In this document: positions 32,417-51,264 of the stretch, piece by piece | Layout of the letters: the number at the start of each line of letters is the position of its first letter | Position numbering within the stretch: position 1 is the first letter of the stretch | Assembly: GCA_000004985.1 (NCBI GenBank) | Contig: GG738859.1 | Length of the DNA stretch: 64,000 nucleotides | Origin: Naegleria gruberi | Lineage: Eukaryota | Strand: one strand, 5' to 3' | The notes under the pieces: generated by a model | Seen by the model: only the letters and a program-made list of their open reading frames with translations | Database searches by the model: none | Told to the model about the DNA's origin: nothing | Made by a program: the position numbers and the translations under genes

Positions 32417-34921
32417 TTAATGATGTGTTAATATTGAAATGTCAGCGAGGGGTGAAAAGTATTCAACTTGCGCCAAAAGTTTTTGCTTCATAATTGATTC
32501 TTTGATGGCATTCATCTTATTTGATTCTGAATTTTCTAGCCAGTATGGATGCTCAATAATTTGCTCAATGGTGATTCGCTCTGCAGGATTCCAGGTAAAT
32601 ATTCTTGAAATGAGATCGAGAGCCACCTCTGAGCAAGAATCCAAAGCGAAACTAAATGAATTTCTTTTAGATTGGAGTGTTCTTTCATTCATCTCGAAAA
32701 TAATTCTTTCCTTCTCCTTTTCGTTAATTCCTTCCATATTGGAAAAACTGAACAAGGGTGAATGTGGTTGTCTTGGAATGGAAATGTCTTCAATTAGTTT
32801 TCTCAACTCATCACATTTCCCTAATACCTTGAATTGATTAAGTGGTAGTAAGTGCTCACTCACTATAAGGCCGAATATAGAATTCCTCTCCTTATTTTCC
32901 TTCCTAGATAGATACATTAACTCTGTAAGTATAACTCCAATAGTCCAAATATTTTGCTTTGAAATGATAGAGCTGATATTTCTCTCTGGGACTAAAGCAT
33001 TGGTACACATCATTAACAGAATTTCAGGAGCCCAATATCTCAATGACAATCTTGGCAGCAACTCCAAGTTATTGTTATTTTCCAAATCAGTAAAATCTAC
33101 CAGAACTTCAGTGTCATGTCTTTGTTTGGAAATAAGTAAGTTAGTATCTGGGTTGAGTAAAAGATTATTTGGGAATGAATTGCTGACCTTTTTGAGGAGC
33201 TTGAGCATGAATGAATTTACATCTTCTAAAGTAAAATCTGAATGCAATAAGCTATCCAAATAGTCAGTCAGATATGCTGAGGAATTTTCAATTTCAGATG
33301 GAAGATTCATTTCCACCGAGTTAGGAGTTACTGTTGGTGACTCAAAACTTCTGTGTGCGATGAAATTCTGAATTAATTCATACATTGTCTCTAGATTATA
33401 ATATTTACACCAATCCAATACATTGAATCCCATCTTGTCTCTTTCCATTGGGTTGTATCCTAGTTTGAGTAGTTCATAAACTTGATTGTACATTTCTCGT
33501 GCAGAAAAATGATGCAATAAAGAGTGGCCGTTGTAATCTCGTTTCAGCTTGAATTCTTCAAACTTTTCAGTGGAATCCATTGGAGACATTTCAAATTGAT
33601 CAAACAAGTTCATTGAATCCATTTCATTAACCGATGATTGGTTCTCGAGTACTCCAGATGTCAACTCGTCCAAATCATCTAAAAAGTTATCTTCATCTCT
33701 GACTTCTTGTAGTGATGCATTTTGCCCCAAACCAATAGAGTTTTCCTCTCCAAAGAATTGAAAATCCAATCCACCATTATCGCAAGTCAAAATCTCATGG
33801 TGGCCATACATTAGTTTTACAATGCATTCTAAATTATTTTCCTTAATTATTGGAGTGTAGCTAAATATTTCCAAATCGTGTCTTAAACCTTCCTGAAGTG
33901 GTGTTAATATATGTTTTCTTGTGATGTTATATACATTGGATGGATTGGCCTTTTCAATAAAGCAAATTGTAGTTGGAAGAGAAAATGGAGAAAATAAATG
34001 AGTAATAAGGGACGACTTCATCAGTAAATCATTCTCATTGAGTGAGACATAAATTACAAAGTGGGTAGATATTTTGCTGTGAGCCCTCGAAGGTGACATG
34101 CTCAAGAGTTGCAATTTCAATTCAGGTTGGGGAAGATGTGCTTTTGGTTGAGTAAGACCAAAAGGTGGGAAATTTGGGAATGGTTGTAAAAAGCTCATGT
34201 CCATCTTTGGAACCATTGAAGAGAGAGGTTGAGTGAACAAATCTCTCTTTCTTTTCTTAGCCATTGGATCATTTGCATCATCAGATGAGTTATTATCATT
34301 TACAAGGAGTGGAGGAAAAGATGAATTTGATGAGCTATCTGAGCTTCCAATAAATGATGAAGGTGTGGTGGTAATATCCATGGATGATGTAGCTGCCACT
34401 GGATTCTTTTCTCTATTGCATTCAAACTCATCAATTACTGTTTCAGTAACCCAGGCATATTTGTTCGTCCCAATTTCAACTCCATATGTATTAAGCCTGT
34501 CTTGACCAACTCTCCTACTCGATCTCTCATTAACAATCATGACACCAATACTTCCTAATACTTTGATAGGTCTATTCGAATAGATGGTTGGATGTCCATT
34601 CACATTCGATTTTTGAAAACTAATCACCTTGCCAATTTCATATTTGTGCCCATTAAATCCTCCAATAATTGTCCTATTCTTACTACATTGACCCTCTGAA
34701 TCAATAACAACTGGTTGATTCTTATACATTTGTTCTTCCGAGGATGTTGAACATGATGAAGACTTTTTCTTCTTTTTCTTCTTTACCTTCTCGTCCTTCA
34801 TTGGTTTCATATCCAAATCATCTTCCTTTTTAATATTCAATGTTGAATCAATCATGGTTGCTAGTGATGCTAGACTTTCATCCGATGATTTGTTGTTGAT
34901 CAATTGTTGTTGTGATTCCAT
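32417..34921 (-). CDS. Kinase-like (probable pseudokinase) protein with an ankyrin repeat and a long N-terminal region
   Basis: 834-aa ORF. The C-terminal half has kinase subdomains VII-XI (LVDFTDLE, RYWAPE, NIWTIGVIL, ERITIEQIIEHPYW). The catalytic loop reads LLLNPDTNLLI with no HRD Asp. An ankyrin-like segment reads NGHSLLHHFSAREMYNQVYELLKLG. Confidence 0.5.
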   Translation of the reverse strand: MESQQQLINNKSSDESLASLATMIDSTLNIKKEDDLDMKPMKDEKVKKKKKKKSSSCSTSSEEQMYKNQPVVIDSEGQCSKNRTIIGGFNGHKYEIGKVISFQKSNVNGHPTIYSNRPIKVLGSIGVMIVNERSSRRVGQDRLNTYGVEIGTNKYAWVTETVIDEFECNREKNPVAATSSMDITTTPSSFIGSSDSSSNSSFPPLLVNDNNSSDDANDPMAKKRKRDLFTQPLSSMVPKMDMSFLQPFPNFPPFGLTQPKAHLPQPELKLQLLSMSPSRAHSKISTHFVIYVSLNENDLLMKSSLITHLFSPFSLPTTICFIEKANPSNVYNITRKHILTPLQEGLRHDLEIFSYTPIIKENNLECIVKLMYGHHEILTCDNGGLDFQFFGEENSIGLGQNASLQEVRDEDNFLDDLDELTSGVLENQSSVNEMDSMNLFDQFEMSPMDSTEKFEEFKLKRDYNGHSLLHHFSAREMYNQVYELLKLGYNPMERDKMGFNVLDWCKYYNLETMYELIQNFIAHRSFESPTVTPNSVEMNLPSEIENSSAYLTDYLDSLLHSDFTLEDVNSFMLKLLKKVSNSFPNNLLLNPDTNLLISKQRHDTEVLVDFTDLENNNNLELLPRLSLRYWAPEILLMMCTNALVPERNISSIISKQNIWTIGVILTELMYLSRKENKERNSIFGLIVSEHLLPLNQFKVLGKCDELRKLIEDISIPRQPHSPLFSFSNMEGINEKEKERIIFEMNERTLQSKRNSFSFALDSCSEVALDLISRIFTWNPAERITIEQIIEHPYWLENSESNKMNAIKESIMKQKLLAQVEYFSPLADISILTHH

Positions 34922-35279
34922 TGAACAATCCGAAATGACAACTCAATTCTTTACAATTTACTAAACTATTTTGCACCGATATTATCAATTTACTATTATC
35001 ATGCACTTTTCAAACTCTAACTGAAGATCTTAAAAGTGATTTCTCTTGTTTTTTTTCTCAATGTTCTCCAATTGCAACGAATGATGGATGCAGCAGAGTT
35101 CATCATGTTCATCCATTCAATATTCCGAAACTCTAAAAATTGGAACAACAAGAACGCAATCATGATGATGATTCACAAGGAATTTGATTGAAAAGACCTA
35201 ATTGTTTTGATTTGGGAGTAATTATTATATTAACAAATCACTCTCTAATCAATTTGATATAAAAAGCAAAATCAAAAAA

Positions 35280-38200
35280 ATGATTCAATCATCAGCAAGG
35301 AATCTTTCAAAACATTTGATGAGGAGTGGAGGTGTTGCTTTTAAACGTACAACCCTCTCCGAATTGGATAAAAAAGTAATTCTGATTAGACAATTGGTGG
35401 ATAGATTTTATTATTCGCAAAATAGAGAGTTTGGTCAGGATTTGTCCCTTGTTGGATTAAAGAATCAAAAGATTAATTTATCTGCTAACATGATGACAAA
35501 TAGTAGTAGTACGAATAATAATTCACGTTCCTATTCATCTTCTACATCACCATCCGAGAAGAAAATTCTACTTGTCGATGGTACTCCACTTGTTGTGAGA
35601 GCTTACTTTGGAACACCTCCTCTGACTTCGTAAGTGATTTTATTGCTTTTCATCAAATGGTTCGAATAATATACAAATAGATCTAATGGAACTCCAACTA
35701 ATGCAATTTTAACATTTGCAAAGAGTTTAATTGCCATTCTGAAATCGGATGAATTTGATCATGTGGCTATCTTTTTCGATTCTGGAAAACCTTCAATAAG
35801 GAAATCAATTTCATCTGATTATAAGGCAAACAGAAAACCAACTGAAGATGTAAGTTATGACCTAGCTTTAGGAGATTCTTAAAATGTTTAGAATTTGAAA
35901 AAACAATTTCCAATCTGTAAATTATTAGCCGAAAAGATGGGCCTAAAAGTGATAAGCAAGGACGGATTTGAAGCAGATGATCTCATTGCTACAGTAGCCA
36001 GACAAGCAAAGGATGAAAAGTTTAATTCAATTGTTGTGGTTTCCTCTGATAAGGATCTTCACTGCCTTTCGGATACAAATTTAACTCTTCTTGACCCAAT
36101 GACAAAGAAGAAATTAACAATGGACGATATAATTGGAAAGTATGAATTGCCTCCAAAGTTGATTCCAGAGTTTTTGGCACTTGTTGGTGACACTGCAGAC
36201 AATATTAAGGGTGTTAAAGGTATTGGAAAGAAGAAGGCAGTTTCACTGTTGGAACAATATGGATCAATTTCTGAAATTTTGAATAATTTGGACGATGAAA
36301 ATATGGAAAAGAAGTCAAGAGAGGCCATCAAGAGTAATATTGATGACCTTAAATTATCCTTGAGGTTAGTTGCTTTGGACGAAGAAGTTCCTTTGGATTA
36401 TTCTTTACAAGATTTCCAAGTTGACCAATCCTCACTGGATTTTTCACAAAACGAAGAGGTATGTTTATATAATAATGTTCACCATTTACAAACAATCGTC
36501 AGCTCATTAAAATGTTAGAGGATTTGGAAATTAATTCAGTCATTAAACAATTAAAGAAGGAAACAGATAAGAAGGAAAAAACTACAAAATCCAAATCTAA
36601 AAAGAAGGAAGTTATAGAATCTGTTGTACTCAGTGAAGAAATGTCCTCTGCAGATGTAGCCTCCTTAAAATTATCCCACGTCTCGGATGACTCTAAAATT
36701 GGTAAGATTGTCAAAGCATCAGAGTACAATATTATTCTGAATGAGAAAGAGTTAGACTCTTTCATTGAACAGGTGAAGATATCAGGAGTAAGTTTGCAAC
36801 AATTTTCAACATACTGACATAATTTAGAATGTTTGTTTCTCAACGGAAATTTGTCTATTAAGCTTACATAATCCTGTAATGGCTGGTATATCATTCTGCA
36901 TTAGTCCAGGACAAGCATACTATCTTCCATTTTTCAAGGGTGGAAAGGTTGAATTTTTAGATTCTGTAAATATTCTAAAGGAAAGTCCAATACTTTCAAA
37001 GGTTAGGACAGAAATTATGGAAAATCCAAACATTCTCAAGATTGGCCACAATATCAAGTATCATATCAAAATGCTTGCAAACTATGGAGTTACAGGTAAG
37101 TTTTAAATTTATTTATTATTTACTAATATTCAATAGTGAAAAACTTTGACGATATCATGGTAATGTCTTATGTTTTAAATTGTGGTAAACATGGTCATGA
37201 AATGGATGAAATTGTAGAAAATGTCTTGTTACTCGATCCTAAGGAACATATCATTCCAGAGAAAGAAGTGCTTGGCATTGGTAAAAAGAAGGTTACCCTT
37301 ATGGAGGCAGATATTGTCAGTGTTGTTCATTTTGCATGCCAACATGCTGACTTGACTAAACAAGCATATGATGTTTTAAAGTCAGCCCTAGATAAGAGTC
37401 CTAAACTTACTCAATTTTACGAAGGTATCGAAAAACCTCTTGTTGAAACACTTGCAGGTATTGAAATGAAGGGAGTTTTTATGGATGAACCTGCCCTTGT
37501 GAAGATGGAAAACGAATATAGAGAAAAGATCAAAGCCATTGGAAATAAGATAAGAGAAGATGCAGGATATCCAACTATTGATGAAGATATTGAAATCCCT
37601 ACTTCAGAAGAGGAAATTGAAAGTATGATCATTGAAATGGATGAAATGAAACAAGAAGCTTCTGAAGAATTCAATATTAATTCAAATAGACAATTGGGAC
37701 AAGTGATATTCGAAAAATTGGGAATTGGTACAAAGTTAAGAAAAAAGACCAAAGTTGGAGATTATATTTTGAATGCTGAAGTTTTACAAAAACTTGCCGC
37801 AGAAGGACACAGCATTGCCAAGCATATTCTAGAATATAGGGCCTTAACCAAACTCTACAGTACATACATCTCTGGATTAAGACAACATATCAACCCATAC
37901 ACAAAGAGAATTCACACCACTTTCCAAAATGCCCTTACGGTTACTGGTAGATTGAGCTCAGTCATGCCAAACATTCAGAACATTCCTGTCAGAACAGCTG
38001 AAGGTAAACAAATAAGAAGATGTTTCATTTCTCCTTCTGATGATTATGTAATAATGAAGGTCGACTATTCACAGGTAGAGTTGAGAATTTTAGCCCATAT
38101 TGCCAATATTCCAGTGCTTAAGAATGCCTTTAAAGAAAATAAGGACGTTCACGCCATTACAGCCAGTCAAGTTTTCAATGTTCCACTCGATCAGGTCGAT

Positions 38201-38755
38201 AAGTCAACCAGAAATAAGGCCAAGGCCATTAACTTTGGTATTATCTATGGTATGAGTGAATTTGGTTTATCAAAGAGAATTGGAGTAGACACTCAAGCCG
38301 CCAAGTCATTTATTGAACAATACTTTAAGCAATATCCAGGTATTAAGAATTACATGACCAAGACTATTGAATTTTGTAGAAAACATGGTTATGTAAATAC
38401 TCTTTTCAACAGAAGATGTTGGATACCTGGTATTGAGGACCAAGGATTTGGAGGAAAATCATCTTTTGGTGAGAGAACAAGTATCAATACTCCAATCCAA
38501 GGTACCTCAGCTGATATCACAAAGATTGCAATGAACTCATTACACAAGGCATTCCAGGAGAAGGGATTGAGAACCAGAATGATTATTCAAGTTCATGATG
38601 AAATTGTTTTTGAAGTACCAAAGGATGAAGTGGAAACAGTCGAACCAATCATTAAGGAACTCATGGAAGGTGCAGCATTCTTTGGTGGAACAAACTTTAC
38701 GGTGCCACTAACCGTCGAAGCTACAGTTGACTCAAAATGGTTGGCAGATGAATAA
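35280..38755 (+). CDS. polA: Bacterial-type DNA polymerase I (family A) with 5'-3' exonuclease, degenerate 3'-5' exonuclease and polymerase domains; 6 exons; N-terminal presequence-like extension
   Basis: Exons 35280-35629, 35681-35849, 35892-36458, 36503-36787, 36828-37095 and 37137-38755 (introns 51, 42, 44, 40 and 41 nt, donors GTAAGT or GTATGT). It is collinear with E. coli Pol I. 5'-exo motifs: LVDGTPLVVRAYF, FEADDLIAT, SSDKDL, H3TH GIGKKKA. Exo-site remnants: FSTE where Pol I has FDTE, and KYHIKML where it has KYDRGIL. Pol motif A DYSQVELRILAH, motif B RNKAKAINFGIIYG, motif C QVHDEIVFE. Confidence 0.85.
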
Positions 38756-38788
38756 ATAATAAATAATTTATTTCCTAGTAAAACTGGT

Positions 38789-41626
38789 TTAGGTTCTTGG
38801 TTTATGACTATTATATTTTCTCTTATTTGGTAAAGATGAGAGTCCTTCATAGGCTTTCACTTTGCTTATTCTTACATTGAATCTTCTCAACATTTCATAC
38901 TCATCTTCTTCACTTTCTGACTCGCTTTCAGATTCTTCTTCACTGCTACTGCTTTCCACAACTTTTCTTGGACGACCAACTTTTCTCTTTGTTTCACTTT
39001 GTTCATCCTTTCTTGGTCGACCAACTTTTCTTTTTGGTTCCTCCTCGTCCTTCTTGGTTTCTTTTTTCACGTTTTGTTGTTCGTCCTTTCTTGGTCTACC
39101 AACTTTTCTCTTTGGTGTTTCATCTTCGCTTTCAGAAGATGATTCTTCCTTAACTTTGGTATTGTGAACGATTCGTCTTGGCTTTGAATCTGCTGATTCT
39201 GATTTCACACTTGAACTACTACTACTAGTTGGCTTGGAAGATGTTGATTCCTTCTTAGTGACTACCTCTTTTGGTTTGGTTTCAGTTTCGTCCTTTCTTG
39301 GGCGACCAACCTTTCTCTTTGGAGCCTCTGGTTCTGGTGTTGTTTTTGCAGATGATGATGATGAAGAAGTAGAAGAAGGTTTTACAGGCTTTGGTTGAGA
39401 TATAGGTGTTTTTGGTGTGGTGAGAATTGGCTTGGCTGAACTAGTTGACTTTGATTCTTTCTTAACAGTACTAGGAGCAGGAGTTGTCTTCTTTTCAACC
39501 TTTTTCTCCTCTACCTTCTTTGGTCTTCCAACCTTTCTCTTTTCTTCCTCTACCCCTTTAGGAGTTGTAATAACAGAGTCACTCTTTCTTGGTCTACCAA
39601 CTTTTCGTTTAGCATCGGATCTAGCTTCTTTGTCATAGTCTGATTCTGATTCAGATTCACTGCTACTTTCCTCAACCTTTCTCTTTTTTGTTTGTTGTGT
39701 TTTCTTGTCTGTTGATTCATCCTTCTTTGGTCTTCCAACTTTTCGTTTGGCTTCAGATTTGGTTCCTTCAGTTCTAGCTTTAGACTTTTCCTTACTATCA
39801 CTACTTGAAGATGATTCAGATTTTCTTGGCCTACCCACTTTTCTCTTTTTCTCCTCTTCATCTGTATTCTTCTTTGGTCTGCCAACCTTTCTCTTTGATT
39901 TGCTCTTTTCATCATCAGATTCCTCATCATATGAAAGTTCAGAGTCTTCATCTTCCTCACTTTCGCTTTCAGATTCACTCTCCTCCATAGCTTTCTTTGG
40001 AGGTCTACCTCTTTTCTTTTTAGTTTCTTCTTCTGGTTTTTCTGCCTTCTTTTTGGCAGTTCTTGTCACTCTAGGTTGTGTTGTCTCAGTGAGTGATGTA
40101 GATATTCCAGCATTTTTACATCTTCTGGTTTTGAATTCGGTATGTCTCATTATTTCTCCTTTTTGAGCCTGTTCATACATTTTAGTCATGAGAGCTCGTT
40201 CGTACACAGTCAGACCAAACTCATCCAATTGTGGGGCATCATCCTTCTTTTGTGTCTCTTCTAATTGTCTTTCTATTGATAAAAATTGTCTGAAACGTTT
40301 CTTTTCAGTCTTTCTAATATTACGAATTAAAAAAGTATTTCCAAATTTTGCAGAGTCAATAACTTCTTTTGGAAGCTTTGAGCTGTCTTCCAATATTTTC
40401 AGTGTGTACAAAGTTCTTTGTTTGAATTTTGATTCAAGTTTGTGAGCTCTTAATTTTTTAGCTTGTTCACTATCCATTTGTGTTGATTTTTCCTTAGCTT
40501 CTAGCAAGGACATATCTTTTGATGTAATTGTTCCTCTGCAATTTGCACTTCCACAATAACATTTTTGGAAGGAAACACCATAACATTCCATTGCATAGTC
40601 AAAAGTAACTTCTTCTCCTTTTTCAATATCTCTAAGTGCAAAAACACCTATCCTAGATTGATGGCCAACTGTCCATTTTTGCAATACAGAGTTTGGATCA
40701 CAACTGTGATTAATAAACCTAGCATTATTACCCTTTTTTGAGGCATCAATAATTTGATTGGTACCAACTGAAAGGAAATAATAGTGGCGTTCACCATCAT
40801 AAGCTTCTTGTCTTTGTTTGTAAATTTTTTCATCTAATACTTCTCCTACATATTCAATAATAAAAGTTCCTTTTGAAATTTTCTCTTTAGCAAAAACTCC
40901 AAACCCCTTTTCACCAGCTCTTTTAACTTCTATTTTTTTCCAACTCTTTTTTTGAAATCTATTATTTGTGCATTTAGATCCACAACTACAATAGCCGATT
41001 ACACACTCCATGCACAATAATCTATTCACACAAAATTCACCACAGTGATCATCACCTGAAATATCTCCCTTTTTTGAAGGACCACAAGTACACATAATAA
41101 TGTCATCATCAAATAAATTTTTCCAGGCATAAACTGTACTATCACCTAAATAAATATTTTCATCAATCTTTTTAAATTGTCTGCTGTCGTAAGCTGCTTT
41201 TTCGTCATCTTCATCTTTTTGTTGATTTAATTCAATTTTCCTCTTCTTTTTTGGTAATTTAACTGTTTCTTCCGATGTTTTGTTTTTCTCATCCTTACTT
41301 TCAAGTCTATTATTTCCAGAAATAAATAATTCTTGTAATAACATGGCATCTTAAAAAATTAAATAAATTAAAATTAATAATAAATTACCTTCCATATCGT
41401 TCTTGGTATGTGATGCAATAGATTCTTGTTGTTCAACACCAGTAGATTTTTTATCATCTTTGTTTTCCTCTCCAGTTGATGACACTACATTTGATGATAC
41501 ACTATTTGGATTGGATAATTCTGATTGTTGGGTATTATCGCTTGGTGGAAGTATCTGATGATCTTCCGTCGTCCCTTCCTTGTTGGGCGATGATGACGAG
41601 GTTTGGCCACTTTCCGTTTGGCTCAT
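38789..41626 (-). CDS. SET-domain (AWS-SET-postSET, SET2/NSD/ASH1-like) histone lysine methyltransferase with a long C-terminal AT-hook repeat region; 2 exons
   Basis: Exon 1 about 41626-41389, intron about 41388-41350 (GTAATT...AAG, 39 nt), exon 2 about 41349-38789. SET motifs GFGVFAKEKI, NHSCDPN, FDYAMECYG. PostSET CYCGSANCRG. Then at least 10 KRKVGRP(R/K)K AT-hooks lie in Ser/Glu/Lys-rich sequence. Confidence 0.75.
38940..40010 (-). repeat. Coding tandem repeat: iterated AT-hook motif (KRKVGRPRK/KKD) inside the SET gene
   Basis: The nucleotide unit cctttcttgg(t/g)c(g/t)accaactttt ctctt recurs on the plus strand. It produces spurious antisense ORFs reading GRPTFLF. Confidence 0.6.
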
Positions 41627-51143: not shown

Positions 51144-51264
51144 TGGCTACGGCCATATCACGATGAATGCACCTCATCCCGTCCGATTTGAGAAGTTAAG
51201 CATCGTCGAGCCACATCAGTACTGAGGTTGGAGACAACTTGGGAACCTGTGGTGCTGTAGTCTT
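51144..51264 (+). rRNA. 5S: 5S ribosomal RNA gene (single dispersed copy)
   Basis: GGCTACGGCCATATCACGATGAATGCACCTCATCCCGTCCGATTTGAGAAGTTAAGCATCGTCGAGCCACATCAGTACTGAGGTTGGAGACAACTTGGGAACCTGTGGTGCTGTAGTC matches the eukaryotic 5S consensus. Helix I closes between GGCUAC and GUAGUC. A T6 Pol III terminator follows. Confidence 0.85.

What the first reader, a model, noticed from the sequence alone, without database searches (positions are those of the whole stretch)
35280..38755. Nuclear, intron-containing, full-length bacterial-type DNA polymerase I with presequence (candidate organellar replicase/repair enzyme)
The six-exon gene encodes a protein collinear with E. coli Pol I from the 5'-3' exonuclease through the polymerase domain. 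All three polymerase motifs and the 5'-exo acidic residues are intact. The 3'-5' proofreading site is degenerate: D of DxE is replaced by S, and the YDRG Asp by H. An N-terminal basic/hydroxylated extension of about 55 aa resembles a targeting peptide. Most eukaryotic organellar family-A polymerases (Pol gamma, POP, PREX) lack the 5'-3' exonuclease. A three-domain Pol I with spliceosomal introns therefore suggests an ancient endosymbiont-derived or horizontally acquired gene now domesticated in the nucleus.
Basis: partly seen in the sequence, partly recalled or inferred. Interest (0 to 1): 0.7.

Follow-up and report, generated by a model that had tools for sequence, protein, structure and literature searches.

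The report
Naegleria mitochondrial DNA polymerase I (rdxPolA)
This is the nuclear, intron-containing gene of the amoeba Naegleria gruberi for a bacterial-type DNA polymerase I that is sent to the mitochondrion; it is real and evolutionarily interesting, but this exact protein was published in 2024 under the name rdxPolA.

Summary
Window 35280-38755 (+) carries a six-exon gene with five GT-AG introns of 51, 42, 44, 40 and 41 nt. Its 1085-aa product is collinear with bacterial DNA polymerase I: presequence, 5' nuclease, 3'-5' exonuclease-like domain, polymerase. All nine 5'-nuclease acidic residues and polymerase motifs A, B and C are intact. The proofreading site has lost three of its four carboxylates (D355S, D424H, D501H in E. 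coli numbering).

My translation is residue-for-residue XP_002679000.1, "DNA polymerase I [Naegleria gruberi NEG-M]". Harada et al. 2024 (PMC10877234) name exactly this protein rdxPolA. They showed that its first 95 aa take GFP to yeast mitochondria, cite its detection in the Naegleria mitochondrial proteome, and propose descent from the proto-mitochondrial Pol I.

My own checks agree. The five introns sit at identical positions and phases in three Naegleria species, synteny is conserved, and the closest bacterial relatives are alphaproteobacterial.

Verdict: interpretation supported, gene already known. The one residual point I did not find discussed is that the proofreading site is degenerate in all four heterolobosean orthologues.

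The parts
35280..38755 (+). Whole coding region (ATG to TAA) of the N. gruberi rdxPolA / DNA polymerase I gene; six exons, 1085 aa
   Evidence: Model built. The translation is exactly XP_002679000.1 / EFC46256.1. There are in-frame stops upstream of the ATG.
35280..35629 (+). Exon 1 (aa 1-117, ends in phase 2)
35630..35680 (+). Intron 1, 51 nt, GTAAGT...TAG
   Evidence: Same alignment column (199) and phase 2 in N. fowleri and N. lovaniensis.
35681..35849 (+). Exon 2
35850..35891 (+). Intron 2, 42 nt, GTAAGT...TAG, phase 0
35892..36458 (+). Exon 3
36459..36502 (+). Intron 3, 44 nt, GTATGT...CAG, phase 0
36503..36787 (+). Exon 4
36788..36827 (+). Intron 4, 40 nt, GTAAGT...TAG, phase 0
36828..37095 (+). 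Exon 5
37096..37136 (+). Intron 5, 41 nt, GTAAGT...TAG, phase 1
37137..38755 (+). Exon 6 (includes the stop codon)
   Evidence: This piece alone is the 539-aa ORF that a prokaryotic gene caller finds (P0122).
35280..35558 (+). N-terminal presequence (aa 1-93): mitochondrial targeting region
   Evidence: It has no counterpart in bacterial Pol I. The first 27 aa contain no acidic residue. Over aa 1-93 there are 13 K+R against 6 D+E, and 23 S/T. pLDDT is below 50 except for a helix at aa 26-50. Harada et al. report that the first 95 aa are predicted as an MTS by MitoFates and direct GFP to yeast mitochondria.
35562..36428 (+). 5'-3' (flap) nuclease domain, aa 95-352; spans introns 1 and 2
   Evidence: Pfam PF02739 and PF01367. 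The residues equivalent to D13, D63, E113, D115, D116, D138, D140, D185 and D188 are all kept, as D100, D150, E200, D202, D203, D226, D228, D273 and D276.
36429..36724 (+). Lys/Ser-rich linker, aa 353-436; spans intron 3
   Evidence: Poorly conserved. pLDDT is below 50 at aa 387-400.
36725..37357 (+). 3'-5' exonuclease-like domain, aa 437-620, with a degenerate active site (S462, E464, H536, F612, H616); spans introns 4 and 5
   Evidence: Pfam PF01612, 2e-12. The fold is modelled with pLDDT 83-98.
37358..38743 (+). Polymerase domain (thumb, palm, fingers), aa about 621-1082. Motif A is DYSQVELR (D856, E861), motif B RNKAKAINFGIIYG (R905, K909, F913, Y917), motif C QVHDE (H1033, D1034, E1035)
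   Evidence: Pfam PF00476, 3e-143. Sequence matches to solved Pol I structures: Taq 4e-136, Klenow 5e-123. Foldseek versus Klenow gives TM-score (target-normalised) 0.89-0.91.
37571..37669 (+). Heterolobosean-specific acidic insertion in the thumb (aa 692-724; 14 D/E, 1 K/R)
   Evidence: Absent from all 24 sampled bacterial Pol I sequences and present in all four heterolobosean orthologues. It falls between E. coli G575 and E576. pLDDT is about 55.

Best explanation
The region is the nuclear gene of Naegleria gruberi for rdxPolA, a bacterial-type DNA polymerase I that works in the mitochondrion.

Expression and import. The pre-mRNA loses five short spliceosomal introns. The 1085-aa precursor is imported through its roughly 93-aa basic, hydroxylated N-terminal presequence.

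Activities. The mature enzyme has an intact family-A polymerase active site and an intact 5' flap/RNA-primer nuclease. It can therefore fill gaps and carry out nick translation, that is, primer removal and repair synthesis. No POP or Pol gamma type enzyme has been reported in heteroloboseans, so it is also the candidate replicative polymerase for mitochondrial DNA. Its 3'-5' exonuclease domain keeps its fold but has lost three of the four metal-binding carboxylates, so the enzyme itself most likely does not proofread.

Origin. It descends from an alphaproteobacterial-type Pol I. The published proposal is that this was the Pol I of the proto-mitochondrion.

Shown: the gene structure, domain and residue content, identity to XP_002679000.1, intron and synteny conservation, and the best-hit and neighbour-joining affinity to alphaproteobacteria.
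Taken from the literature: mitochondrial targeting of the N-terminus in yeast, and detection in the mitochondrial proteome.
Inferred: the replicase role, loss of proofreading, and cleavage of the presequence.
For: - The six-exon model translates without interruption and is exactly XP_002679000.1 / EFC46256.1 of N. gruberi NEG-M.
- Harada et al. 2024 list that accession as the N. gruberi rdxPolA. They report that its first 95 aa are predicted as an MTS and drive GFP into yeast mitochondria, and they cite its detection in the mitochondrial fraction by Horvathova et al. 2021.
- Pfam and NCBIfam give a full Pol I architecture above the curated cut-offs.
- The best sequence matches among solved structures are Taq Pol I and the Klenow fragment. 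The AF2 model has pLDDT 83 and matches Taq, M. smegmatis Pol1 and Klenow.
- The catalytic residues of the polymerase and the 5' nuclease are all present. The exonuclease site reads S, E, H, F, H.
- Orthologues exist in N. fowleri (71% identity), N. lovaniensis (70%) and Willaertia magna (50%).
- The five introns occupy the same alignment columns and phases in the three Naegleria species, but with different lengths and sequences.
- The flanking kinase-like and AWS-SET-AT-hook genes are syntenic.
- The best bacterial hit, P0004, is a Rhodospirillales-like alphaproteobacterial Pol I.
- In a rough neighbour-joining tree the heterolobosean clade (100% bootstrap) is sister to the alphaproteobacterial Pol I clade (76%).
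Against: - No direct evidence from Naegleria cells. There is no in vivo tagging, no enzymology, and I had no RNA-seq to view the splice junctions.
- Targeting was tested heterologously in yeast, and with the N-terminus only.
- The replicase role is inferred from the reported absence of other organellar polymerases, not demonstrated. Bacterial Pol I is a repair and primer-removal enzyme, not the main replicase.
- Loss of proofreading is predicted from residues only.
- My tree is distance-based, has few taxa, and its alphaproteobacterial sample was chosen from best hits. I could not include the other rdxPolA sequences (jakobids, Tsukubamonas, malawimonads, ancyromonads).
Confidence: 0.92

Rival explanations
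1. The enzyme is only a mitochondrial repair and primer-removal enzyme (nick translation, base-excision gap filling), as Pol I is in bacteria. On this view another, unidentified polymerase replicates Naegleria mitochondrial DNA.
For: The 5' nuclease is intact while the proofreading site is dead. That is the profile of a short-patch repair or processing enzyme rather than a high-fidelity replicase. By established knowledge, bacterial Pol I is not the replicase. Gray et al. 2020 describe this bacterial role when discussing the Andalucia homologue.
Against: Harada et al. found no POP, PolIA or PolIBCD+ in rdxPolA-bearing discobids and treat rdxPolA as their mitochondrial DNA polymerase. Other family-A enzymes do serve as organellar replicases (Pol gamma, POP, by general knowledge). 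I could not search the Naegleria genome for other polymerases with these tools.
Confidence: 0.25
2. The gene is bacterial contamination, or a recent and not yet functional horizontal transfer, and the 'introns' are artefacts of forcing an ORF.
For: The protein passes the equivalog thresholds for bacterial Pol I. A prokaryotic gene caller picks up exon 6 as a 539-aa ORF.
Against: Five GT-AG introns lie at identical positions and phases in three Naegleria genomes, with diverged intron sequences. G+C content is 34%, like the rest of the window. The eukaryotic neighbours are syntenic across species. Identity to the nearest bacterium is only 37%. An orthologue also exists in Willaertia, and the protein is reported from the mitochondrial proteome.
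Confidence: 0.01
3. It is a divergent member of a previously known eukaryotic family-A group: POP, Pol gamma, the PREX polymerase, trypanosomatid PolIA-D, or nuclear Pol theta/nu.
For: All share the family-A polymerase fold. Pol nu, Pol theta and PREX appear as weaker matches among solved structures.
Against: Those matches cover only the polymerase domain, at E 1e-41 to 1e-44, against 4e-136 for Taq and 5e-123 for Klenow. The protein has a Pol I-type 5' nuclease that these groups lack. It has no primase-helicase domain (PREX) and no helicase domain (Pol theta). The published global tree puts rdxPolA apart from all previously known eukaryotic types.
Confidence: 0.02

Closest known systems
rdxPolA (Harada et al. 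2024, Mol Biol Evol 41:msae014; first noticed in Andalucia godoyi by Gray et al. 2020)
   Same: This is the very protein those authors list for N. gruberi (XP_002679000.1). It is nuclear-encoded, has an N-terminal mitochondrial targeting sequence, is of Pol I type, and has alphaproteobacterial affinity.
   Different: Nothing at the level of identity. There are nuances I did not find in the paper's main text. The heterolobosean members keep a fully intact 5' nuclease but have a degenerate 3'-5' exonuclease site. By contrast, the Andalucia member is described as having only a remnant 5'-3' exonuclease domain. The heterolobosean members also carry an acidic insertion in the thumb.
Bacterial DNA polymerase I (E. 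coli PolA, Taq Pol I, M. smegmatis Pol1)
   Same: Same three-domain order. All catalytic residues of the 5' nuclease and the polymerase are kept. The protein passes the NCBIfam Pol I equivalog cut-offs. The model fits Klenow with target-normalised TM-score 0.89-0.91. Like Taq and Bacillus Pol I, it keeps an exonuclease-like fold without the catalytic carboxylates.
   Different: It is encoded in a eukaryotic nucleus and interrupted by five spliceosomal introns. It has a 93-aa presequence, a longer Lys/Ser-rich linker and a 33-aa acidic thumb insertion. Identity to the nearest bacterial sequence is only 37-39%.
Plant and protist organellar polymerase (POP), Pol gamma, apicoplast PREX
   Same: All are nuclear-encoded family-A polymerases imported into organelles to maintain organellar DNA.
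   Different: By general knowledge these have no Pol I-type 5' nuclease and have active proofreading domains. They form separate clades of unclear or phage-like origin. Here the 5' nuclease is present and the proofreading site is degenerate. The sequence matches bacterial Pol I far better than it matches PREX.

Membership tests
Family A DNA polymerase | PF00476 polymerase domain with motifs A (DYSQIELR), B (RxxxKxxxFxxxYG) and C (QVHDE) | tested here: met
   PF00476 at 3e-143. D856, E861, R905, K909, F913, Y917, H1033, D1034 and E1035 are all present.
Bacterial-type DNA polymerase I (PolA) | Single chain with an N-terminal 5' nuclease, a central 3'-5' exonuclease-type domain and a C-terminal polymerase, scoring above the curated equivalog thresholds | tested here: met
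   NF004397 scores 928 bits (cut-off 720) and TIGR00593 scores 796 bits (cut-off 600). Pfam gives the domain order. Full-length Taq and M. smegmatis Pol1 are the top structural matches.
Bacterial-type DNA polymerase I (PolA) | Active 3'-5' proofreading site (D355, E357, D424, D501, Y497 of E. coli). This defines the E. coli-like subtype, not all Pol I enzymes. | tested here: not met
   The site reads S462, E464, H536, H616, F612. This resembles the exonuclease-deficient Taq and Bacillus subtype.
rdxPolA | Being one of the sequences in the rdxPolA clade as defined by its authors | tested here: met
   The translation is identical over all 1085 residues to XP_002679000.1. The paper names that accession as the N. 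gruberi rdxPolA.
rdxPolA | Monophyly with the jakobid, Tsukubamonas, malawimonad and ancyromonad sequences | not testable with these tools
   Those sequences did not appear among the 120 listed hits and could not be fetched. This point rests on Harada et al., Fig. 1 and Fig. 5d.
rdxPolA | Sister to, but outside, the alphaproteobacterial Pol I radiation | tested here: met
   The best bacterial hit is a Rhodospirillales-like alphaproteobacterium. The neighbour-joining tree groups heteroloboseans with alphaproteobacteria at 76% bootstrap. The alphaproteobacteria are monophyletic to the exclusion of the eukaryotes at 60-97%. This is a rough, distance-based test on a small sample.
rdxPolA | N-terminal mitochondrial targeting sequence and mitochondrial localisation | tested here: inconclusive
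   Composition and disorder fit a presequence, but no targeting predictor was available here. Experimental support (yeast GFP fusion, mitochondrial proteome) comes from the literature.
POP / PREX / Pol gamma | No Pol I-type 5' nuclease, plus family-specific extra domains (primase-helicase in PREX) and clade membership | tested here: not met
   A 5' nuclease is present, and no helicase or primase domain is found. The PREX polymerase matches at only 2e-41, against 4e-136 for Taq.

The most novel reading that the evidence does not exclude
In the Naegleria-Willaertia lineage the mitochondrial Pol I has lost proofreading. Three of the four exonuclease carboxylates are replaced: S-E-H-H in Naegleria, and H-Y-H-Y in Willaertia, where all four are gone. 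The His at the D424 position is conserved in all four species, and the domain fold is retained. If rdxPolA is their only mitochondrial polymerase, there are three possibilities. These amoebae may replicate mtDNA without intrinsic proofreading. They may rely on a separate exonuclease acting in trans, such as the DnaQ-like protein noted in Andalucia. Or the domain may have been put to another use. I did not find this discussed in the main text of the defining paper. Together with the opposite decay pattern in Andalucia (remnant 5' nuclease), it would mean that rdxPolA lost different activities in different lineages.
Probability: 0.4. Interest if true: 0.35.

Novelty: already known. Interest (0 to 1): 0.2.

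Why it matters
rdxPolA is the published candidate for the one organellar DNA polymerase inherited directly from the alphaproteobacterial ancestor of mitochondria. That makes it relevant to how mitochondrial DNA replication was rebuilt before the last eukaryotic common ancestor. This case has already been made, and with this exact protein.

The only increments are small:
- residue-level evidence that the heterolobosean enzymes are proofreading-deficient while keeping the 5' nuclease;
- five introns shared by the three Naegleria species but absent from Willaertia;
- a lineage-specific acidic insertion in the thumb.

Tried and rejected
- Contamination or an artefactual gene model: rejected on intron conservation, synteny and composition.
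- POP, PREX, Pol gamma or Pol theta/nu membership: rejected on domain content and match strength.
- A 60-nt alternative for intron 3 (acceptor at 36518): rejected because it breaks the reading frame. Only 36459-36502 restores it.
- First splice mapper: it failed on N. lovaniensis, as did a brute-force retry. An exhaustive search then found the annotated model. That model has the five conserved introns plus an extra 44-nt GTTTAG 'intron', probably an annotation patch.
I repeated it with session proteins only.
- Supplementary files of Harada et al. (domain figure S1, accession tables): not held. I therefore could not check whether the exonuclease-site degeneracy is noted there.
- Literature search for Naegleria mitochondrial polymerase proofreading: nothing specific found.
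- Search for the Horvathova 2021 proteome paper: not found in the library. That evidence is second-hand, through Harada et al.
- Other rdxPolA sequences (jakobids and others): none among the 120 listed homologues. The rdxPolA clade itself was therefore not re-tested.
- No maximum-likelihood tree program was available, so only neighbour joining with bootstrap was done.
- tRNA scan of the window: no genes found.
Full report
**1. What is in the sequence**

Window 34800-39200 is AT-rich (about 34% G+C), like the whole 64-kb window. On the + strand, six pieces of open reading frame lie between 35280 and 38755. They join into one frame if five short GT-AG intervals are removed.

| Piece | Coordinates | Intron length |
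|---|---|---|
| Exon 1 | 35280-35629 | |
| Intron 1 | 35630-35680 | 51 nt |
| Exon 2 | 35681-35849 | |
| Intron 2 | 35850-35891 | 42 nt |
| Exon 3 | 35892-36458 | |
| Intron 3 | 36459-36502 | 44 nt |
| Exon 4 | 36503-36787 | |
| Intron 4 | 36788-36827 | 40 nt |
| Exon 5 | 36828-37095 | |
| Intron 5 | 37096-37136 | 41 nt |
| Exon 6 | 37137-38755 | |

Each intron starts with GTAAGT or GTATGT, ends in AG, and is 12-31% G+C. The spliced CDS is 3258 nt and gives 1085 aa. In-frame stops precede the ATG.

**2. What the protein is**

Domain content:
- Pfam finds the 5'-3' exonuclease N- and C-terminal domains (aa 95-352), a 3'-5' exonuclease domain (aa 437-580, weak, 2e-12) and the family-A polymerase domain (aa 706-1082, 3e-143).
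- Two curated NCBIfam equivalogs for bacterial DNA polymerase I are passed: 928 bits against a cut-off of 720, and 796 bits against 600.
- The best sequence matches among solved structures are Taq Pol I (4e-136) and the Klenow fragment (5e-123). Pol nu, Pol theta and apicoplast PREX match only the polymerase domain, at 1e-41 to 1e-44.
- An AlphaFold2 model (mean pLDDT 83) has a disordered N-terminus (aa 1-93, with one helix at 26-50), confident nuclease, exonuclease-like and polymerase domains, and a low-confidence loop at aa 692-724.
- Foldseek ranks full-length Taq, M. smegmatis Pol1 and Klenow first. The target-normalised TM-score to Klenow is 0.89-0.91.

Catalytic residues, mapped on E. 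coli PolA taken from NC_000913:

| Site | E. coli residues | State in N. gruberi |
|---|---|---|
| 5' nuclease | D13, D63, E113, D115, D116, D138, D140, D185, D188 | all nine kept |
| Polymerase | D705, E710, R754, K758, F762, Y766, Q849, H881, D882, E883 | all kept |
| 3'-5' exonuclease | D355, E357, D424, Y497, D501 | S462, E464, H536, F612, H616 |

Three of the four metal-binding carboxylates are therefore gone.

The residue roles come from the established Klenow and 5'-nuclease mutagenesis literature, which I recalled from memory. That these positions are D, E or Y in E. coli was checked.

The N-terminal extension before the first conserved domain is about 93 aa, not about 55. It has no acidic residue in the first 27 aa. 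Over aa 1-93 there are 13 K+R against 6 D+E, and 23 S/T.

**3. Whose gene it is**

An exact-sequence look-up shows that my translation is identical, from first to last residue, to EFC46256.1 / XP_002679000.1, "DNA polymerase I [Naegleria gruberi strain NEG-M]". The window is therefore N. gruberi nuclear DNA, and my gene model equals the reference annotation.

Orthologues are found in N. fowleri (71% identity), N. lovaniensis (70%) and Willaertia magna (50%). The next best hits are bacterial Pol I sequences at 37% identity or less.

**4. Independent tests of 'nuclear and spliced'**

I fetched the orthologous loci and mapped the annotated proteins back onto the DNA.
- N. fowleri has five GT-AG introns of 89, 51, 57, 70 and 50 nt.
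- They fall in exactly the same alignment columns (199, 269, 488, 598, 708) and phases (2, 0, 0, 0, 1) as the N. gruberi introns.
- N. lovaniensis has introns with the same five phases (2, 0, 0, 0, 1) at residue positions that correspond to them. Its model also has one extra 44-nt interval with an atypical GTTTAG donor, which looks like an annotation patch.
- Intron sequences and lengths differ between species while the exons stay about 70% identical at the protein level. This is the pattern expected of real introns.
- Willaertia has none of the five.

The neighbours in the window are eukaryotic. Upstream, on the minus strand, lies a kinase-like protein at 32417-34921. Downstream, also on the minus strand, lies an AWS-SET protein with many AT-hooks at 38789-41344. 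N. fowleri and N. lovaniensis show the same arrangement: an upstream gene of similar size and orientation on the minus strand and the AWS-SET-AT-hook gene downstream. Bacterial contamination is excluded.

**5. Origin**

The best bacterial hit, P0004, belongs to Rhodospirillales-like alphaproteobacteria. Its closest genomic relatives are Nisaea, Kiloniella, Thalassospiraceae, Azospirillum and Sneathiella.

I built a neighbour-joining tree with 28 sequences, 873 columns, Kimura distances and 200 bootstraps.
- The four heteroloboseans are monophyletic (100%).
- They group with the alphaproteobacterial Pol I sequences (76%).
- They lie outside the alphaproteobacterial radiation (60-97%, depending on whether two divergent MAG sequences are included).

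This is a crude test on a biased sample, but it agrees with the published maximum-likelihood result.

**6. Comparison with what is known**

Harada et al. 2024 (PMC10877234) surveyed organellar family-A polymerases and defined ten new types.
- One type, rdxPolA, occurs in jakobids, Tsukubamonas, heteroloboseans, malawimonads and ancyromonads.
- They name XP_002679000.1 as the N. gruberi member.
- They state that its first 95 aa are predicted as an MTS by MitoFates.
- They show that this N-terminus takes GFP to yeast mitochondria.
- They cite its detection in the N. gruberi mitochondrial fraction by Horvathova et al. 2021.
- Their tree places rdxPolA with alphaproteobacterial Pol I (97% ML bootstrap, posterior probability 1.0), but as a separate subclade.
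- They propose that it descends directly from the proto-mitochondrial Pol I and was present in the last eukaryotic common ancestor alongside POP.

The type was first noticed in Andalucia godoyi by Gray et al. 2020. They remarked that the Andalucia protein has only a remnant 5'-3' exonuclease domain and that a separate mitochondrial 5'-3' exonuclease exists.

**7. What is left over**

The exonuclease-site degeneracy is shared by all four heterolobosean orthologues. N. fowleri and N. lovaniensis read S, E, H, Y, H. Willaertia reads H, Y, H, Y, Y. The ten typical alphaproteobacterial-clade Pol I sequences sampled keep D, E, D, Y, D. One divergent alphaproteobacterial MAG sequence (P0027, which lacks a Pfam exonuclease domain) and several other bacterial Pol I sequences are also degenerate at this site.

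The loss therefore predates the Naegleria-Willaertia split. It contrasts with the fully preserved 5' nuclease, and it is the opposite of the decay pattern reported for Andalucia.

'Exonuclease' occurs in only one passage of the 2024 main text, in the methods, and 'proofreading' was not among my search terms there. The supplements were not available, and a literature search found nothing specific. This is a modest, testable point, not a new kind of system.

All four orthologues also carry an insertion in the thumb, between E. coli G575 and E576. In N. gruberi it is 33 aa long with 14 acidic residues. It is much longer in Willaertia. Its function is unknown.

**8. Mechanism**

The most likely mechanism is as follows.
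- The pre-mRNA is spliced.
- The protein is imported into mitochondria by way of the presequence.
- The polymerase and the 5' nuclease act together in gap filling and primer or flap removal.
- Because no POP or Pol gamma type enzyme is reported in this lineage, the enzyme probably also carries out bulk mtDNA synthesis.
- It has no intrinsic proofreading.

The repair-only alternative cannot be excluded with these tools; I give it about 0.25.

**9. Verdict**

Novelty: already known (rdxPolA, 2024; the gene has been annotated as DNA polymerase I in the reference genome). Interest is low for discovery purposes (0.2), although the gene itself is evolutionarily notable.

Noticed in passing
window 51145-51263 (+): A full-length 5S ribosomal RNA gene (Rfam RF00001, 105 bits, E 4e-22). 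It is the only Rfam match at gathering threshold in the window. ARAGORN found no tRNA genes.
   Followed up: no
window 38789-41344 (-): The downstream neighbour is an AWS-SET histone-methyltransferase-like protein. Its C-terminal half carries about ten near-identical AT-hook repeats ('KRKVGRPRK' / 'KRKVGRPKK') separated by Ser/Glu-rich spacers. The N. fowleri and N. lovaniensis orthologues are longer (1137 and 1132 aa), so the 851-aa ORF is probably only part of the gene.
   Followed up: partly
window 37571-37669 (aa 692-724 of the polymerase): An acidic insertion specific to heteroloboseans (14 D/E, 1 K/R) sits in the thumb of the polymerase, between the equivalents of E. coli G575 and E576. 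It is present in all four orthologues, roughly twice as long in Willaertia, and absent from all 24 sampled bacterial Pol I sequences. It is modelled with low confidence.
   Followed up: partly
L004 7560-7614 (Willaertia magna) and L003 7202-7245 (N. lovaniensis): The Willaertia orthologue lacks all five Naegleria introns. Its only annotated 'intron' (55 nt, GTGCCG...AAG) lies in a low-complexity linker. The N. lovaniensis model has an extra 44-nt 'intron' with a GTTTAG donor that removes about 22 aa present in the other two Naegleria species. Both look like annotation patches rather than real introns.
   Followed up: partly
protein cluster of the query (P0122, 539 aa, ENA contig of 8473 bases): In the 90%-identity clustering, the representative of this protein's cluster is a 539-aa ENA protein. 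Its length equals that of the exon-6 ORF (37136-38755). Apparently the last exon was called as a stand-alone prokaryotic gene on a short ENA contig, which shows how such eukaryotic genes can masquerade as bacterial ones in metagenome catalogues.
   Followed up: no
window 32417-34921 (-): The upstream neighbour is an 834-aa single-ORF protein with only a weak, partial protein-kinase domain match (C-lobe only, 8e-08, just above the Pfam cut-off). It may be a pseudokinase. A gene of similar size sits at the same position in N. fowleri and N. lovaniensis, there without any recorded Pfam hit.
   Followed up: no
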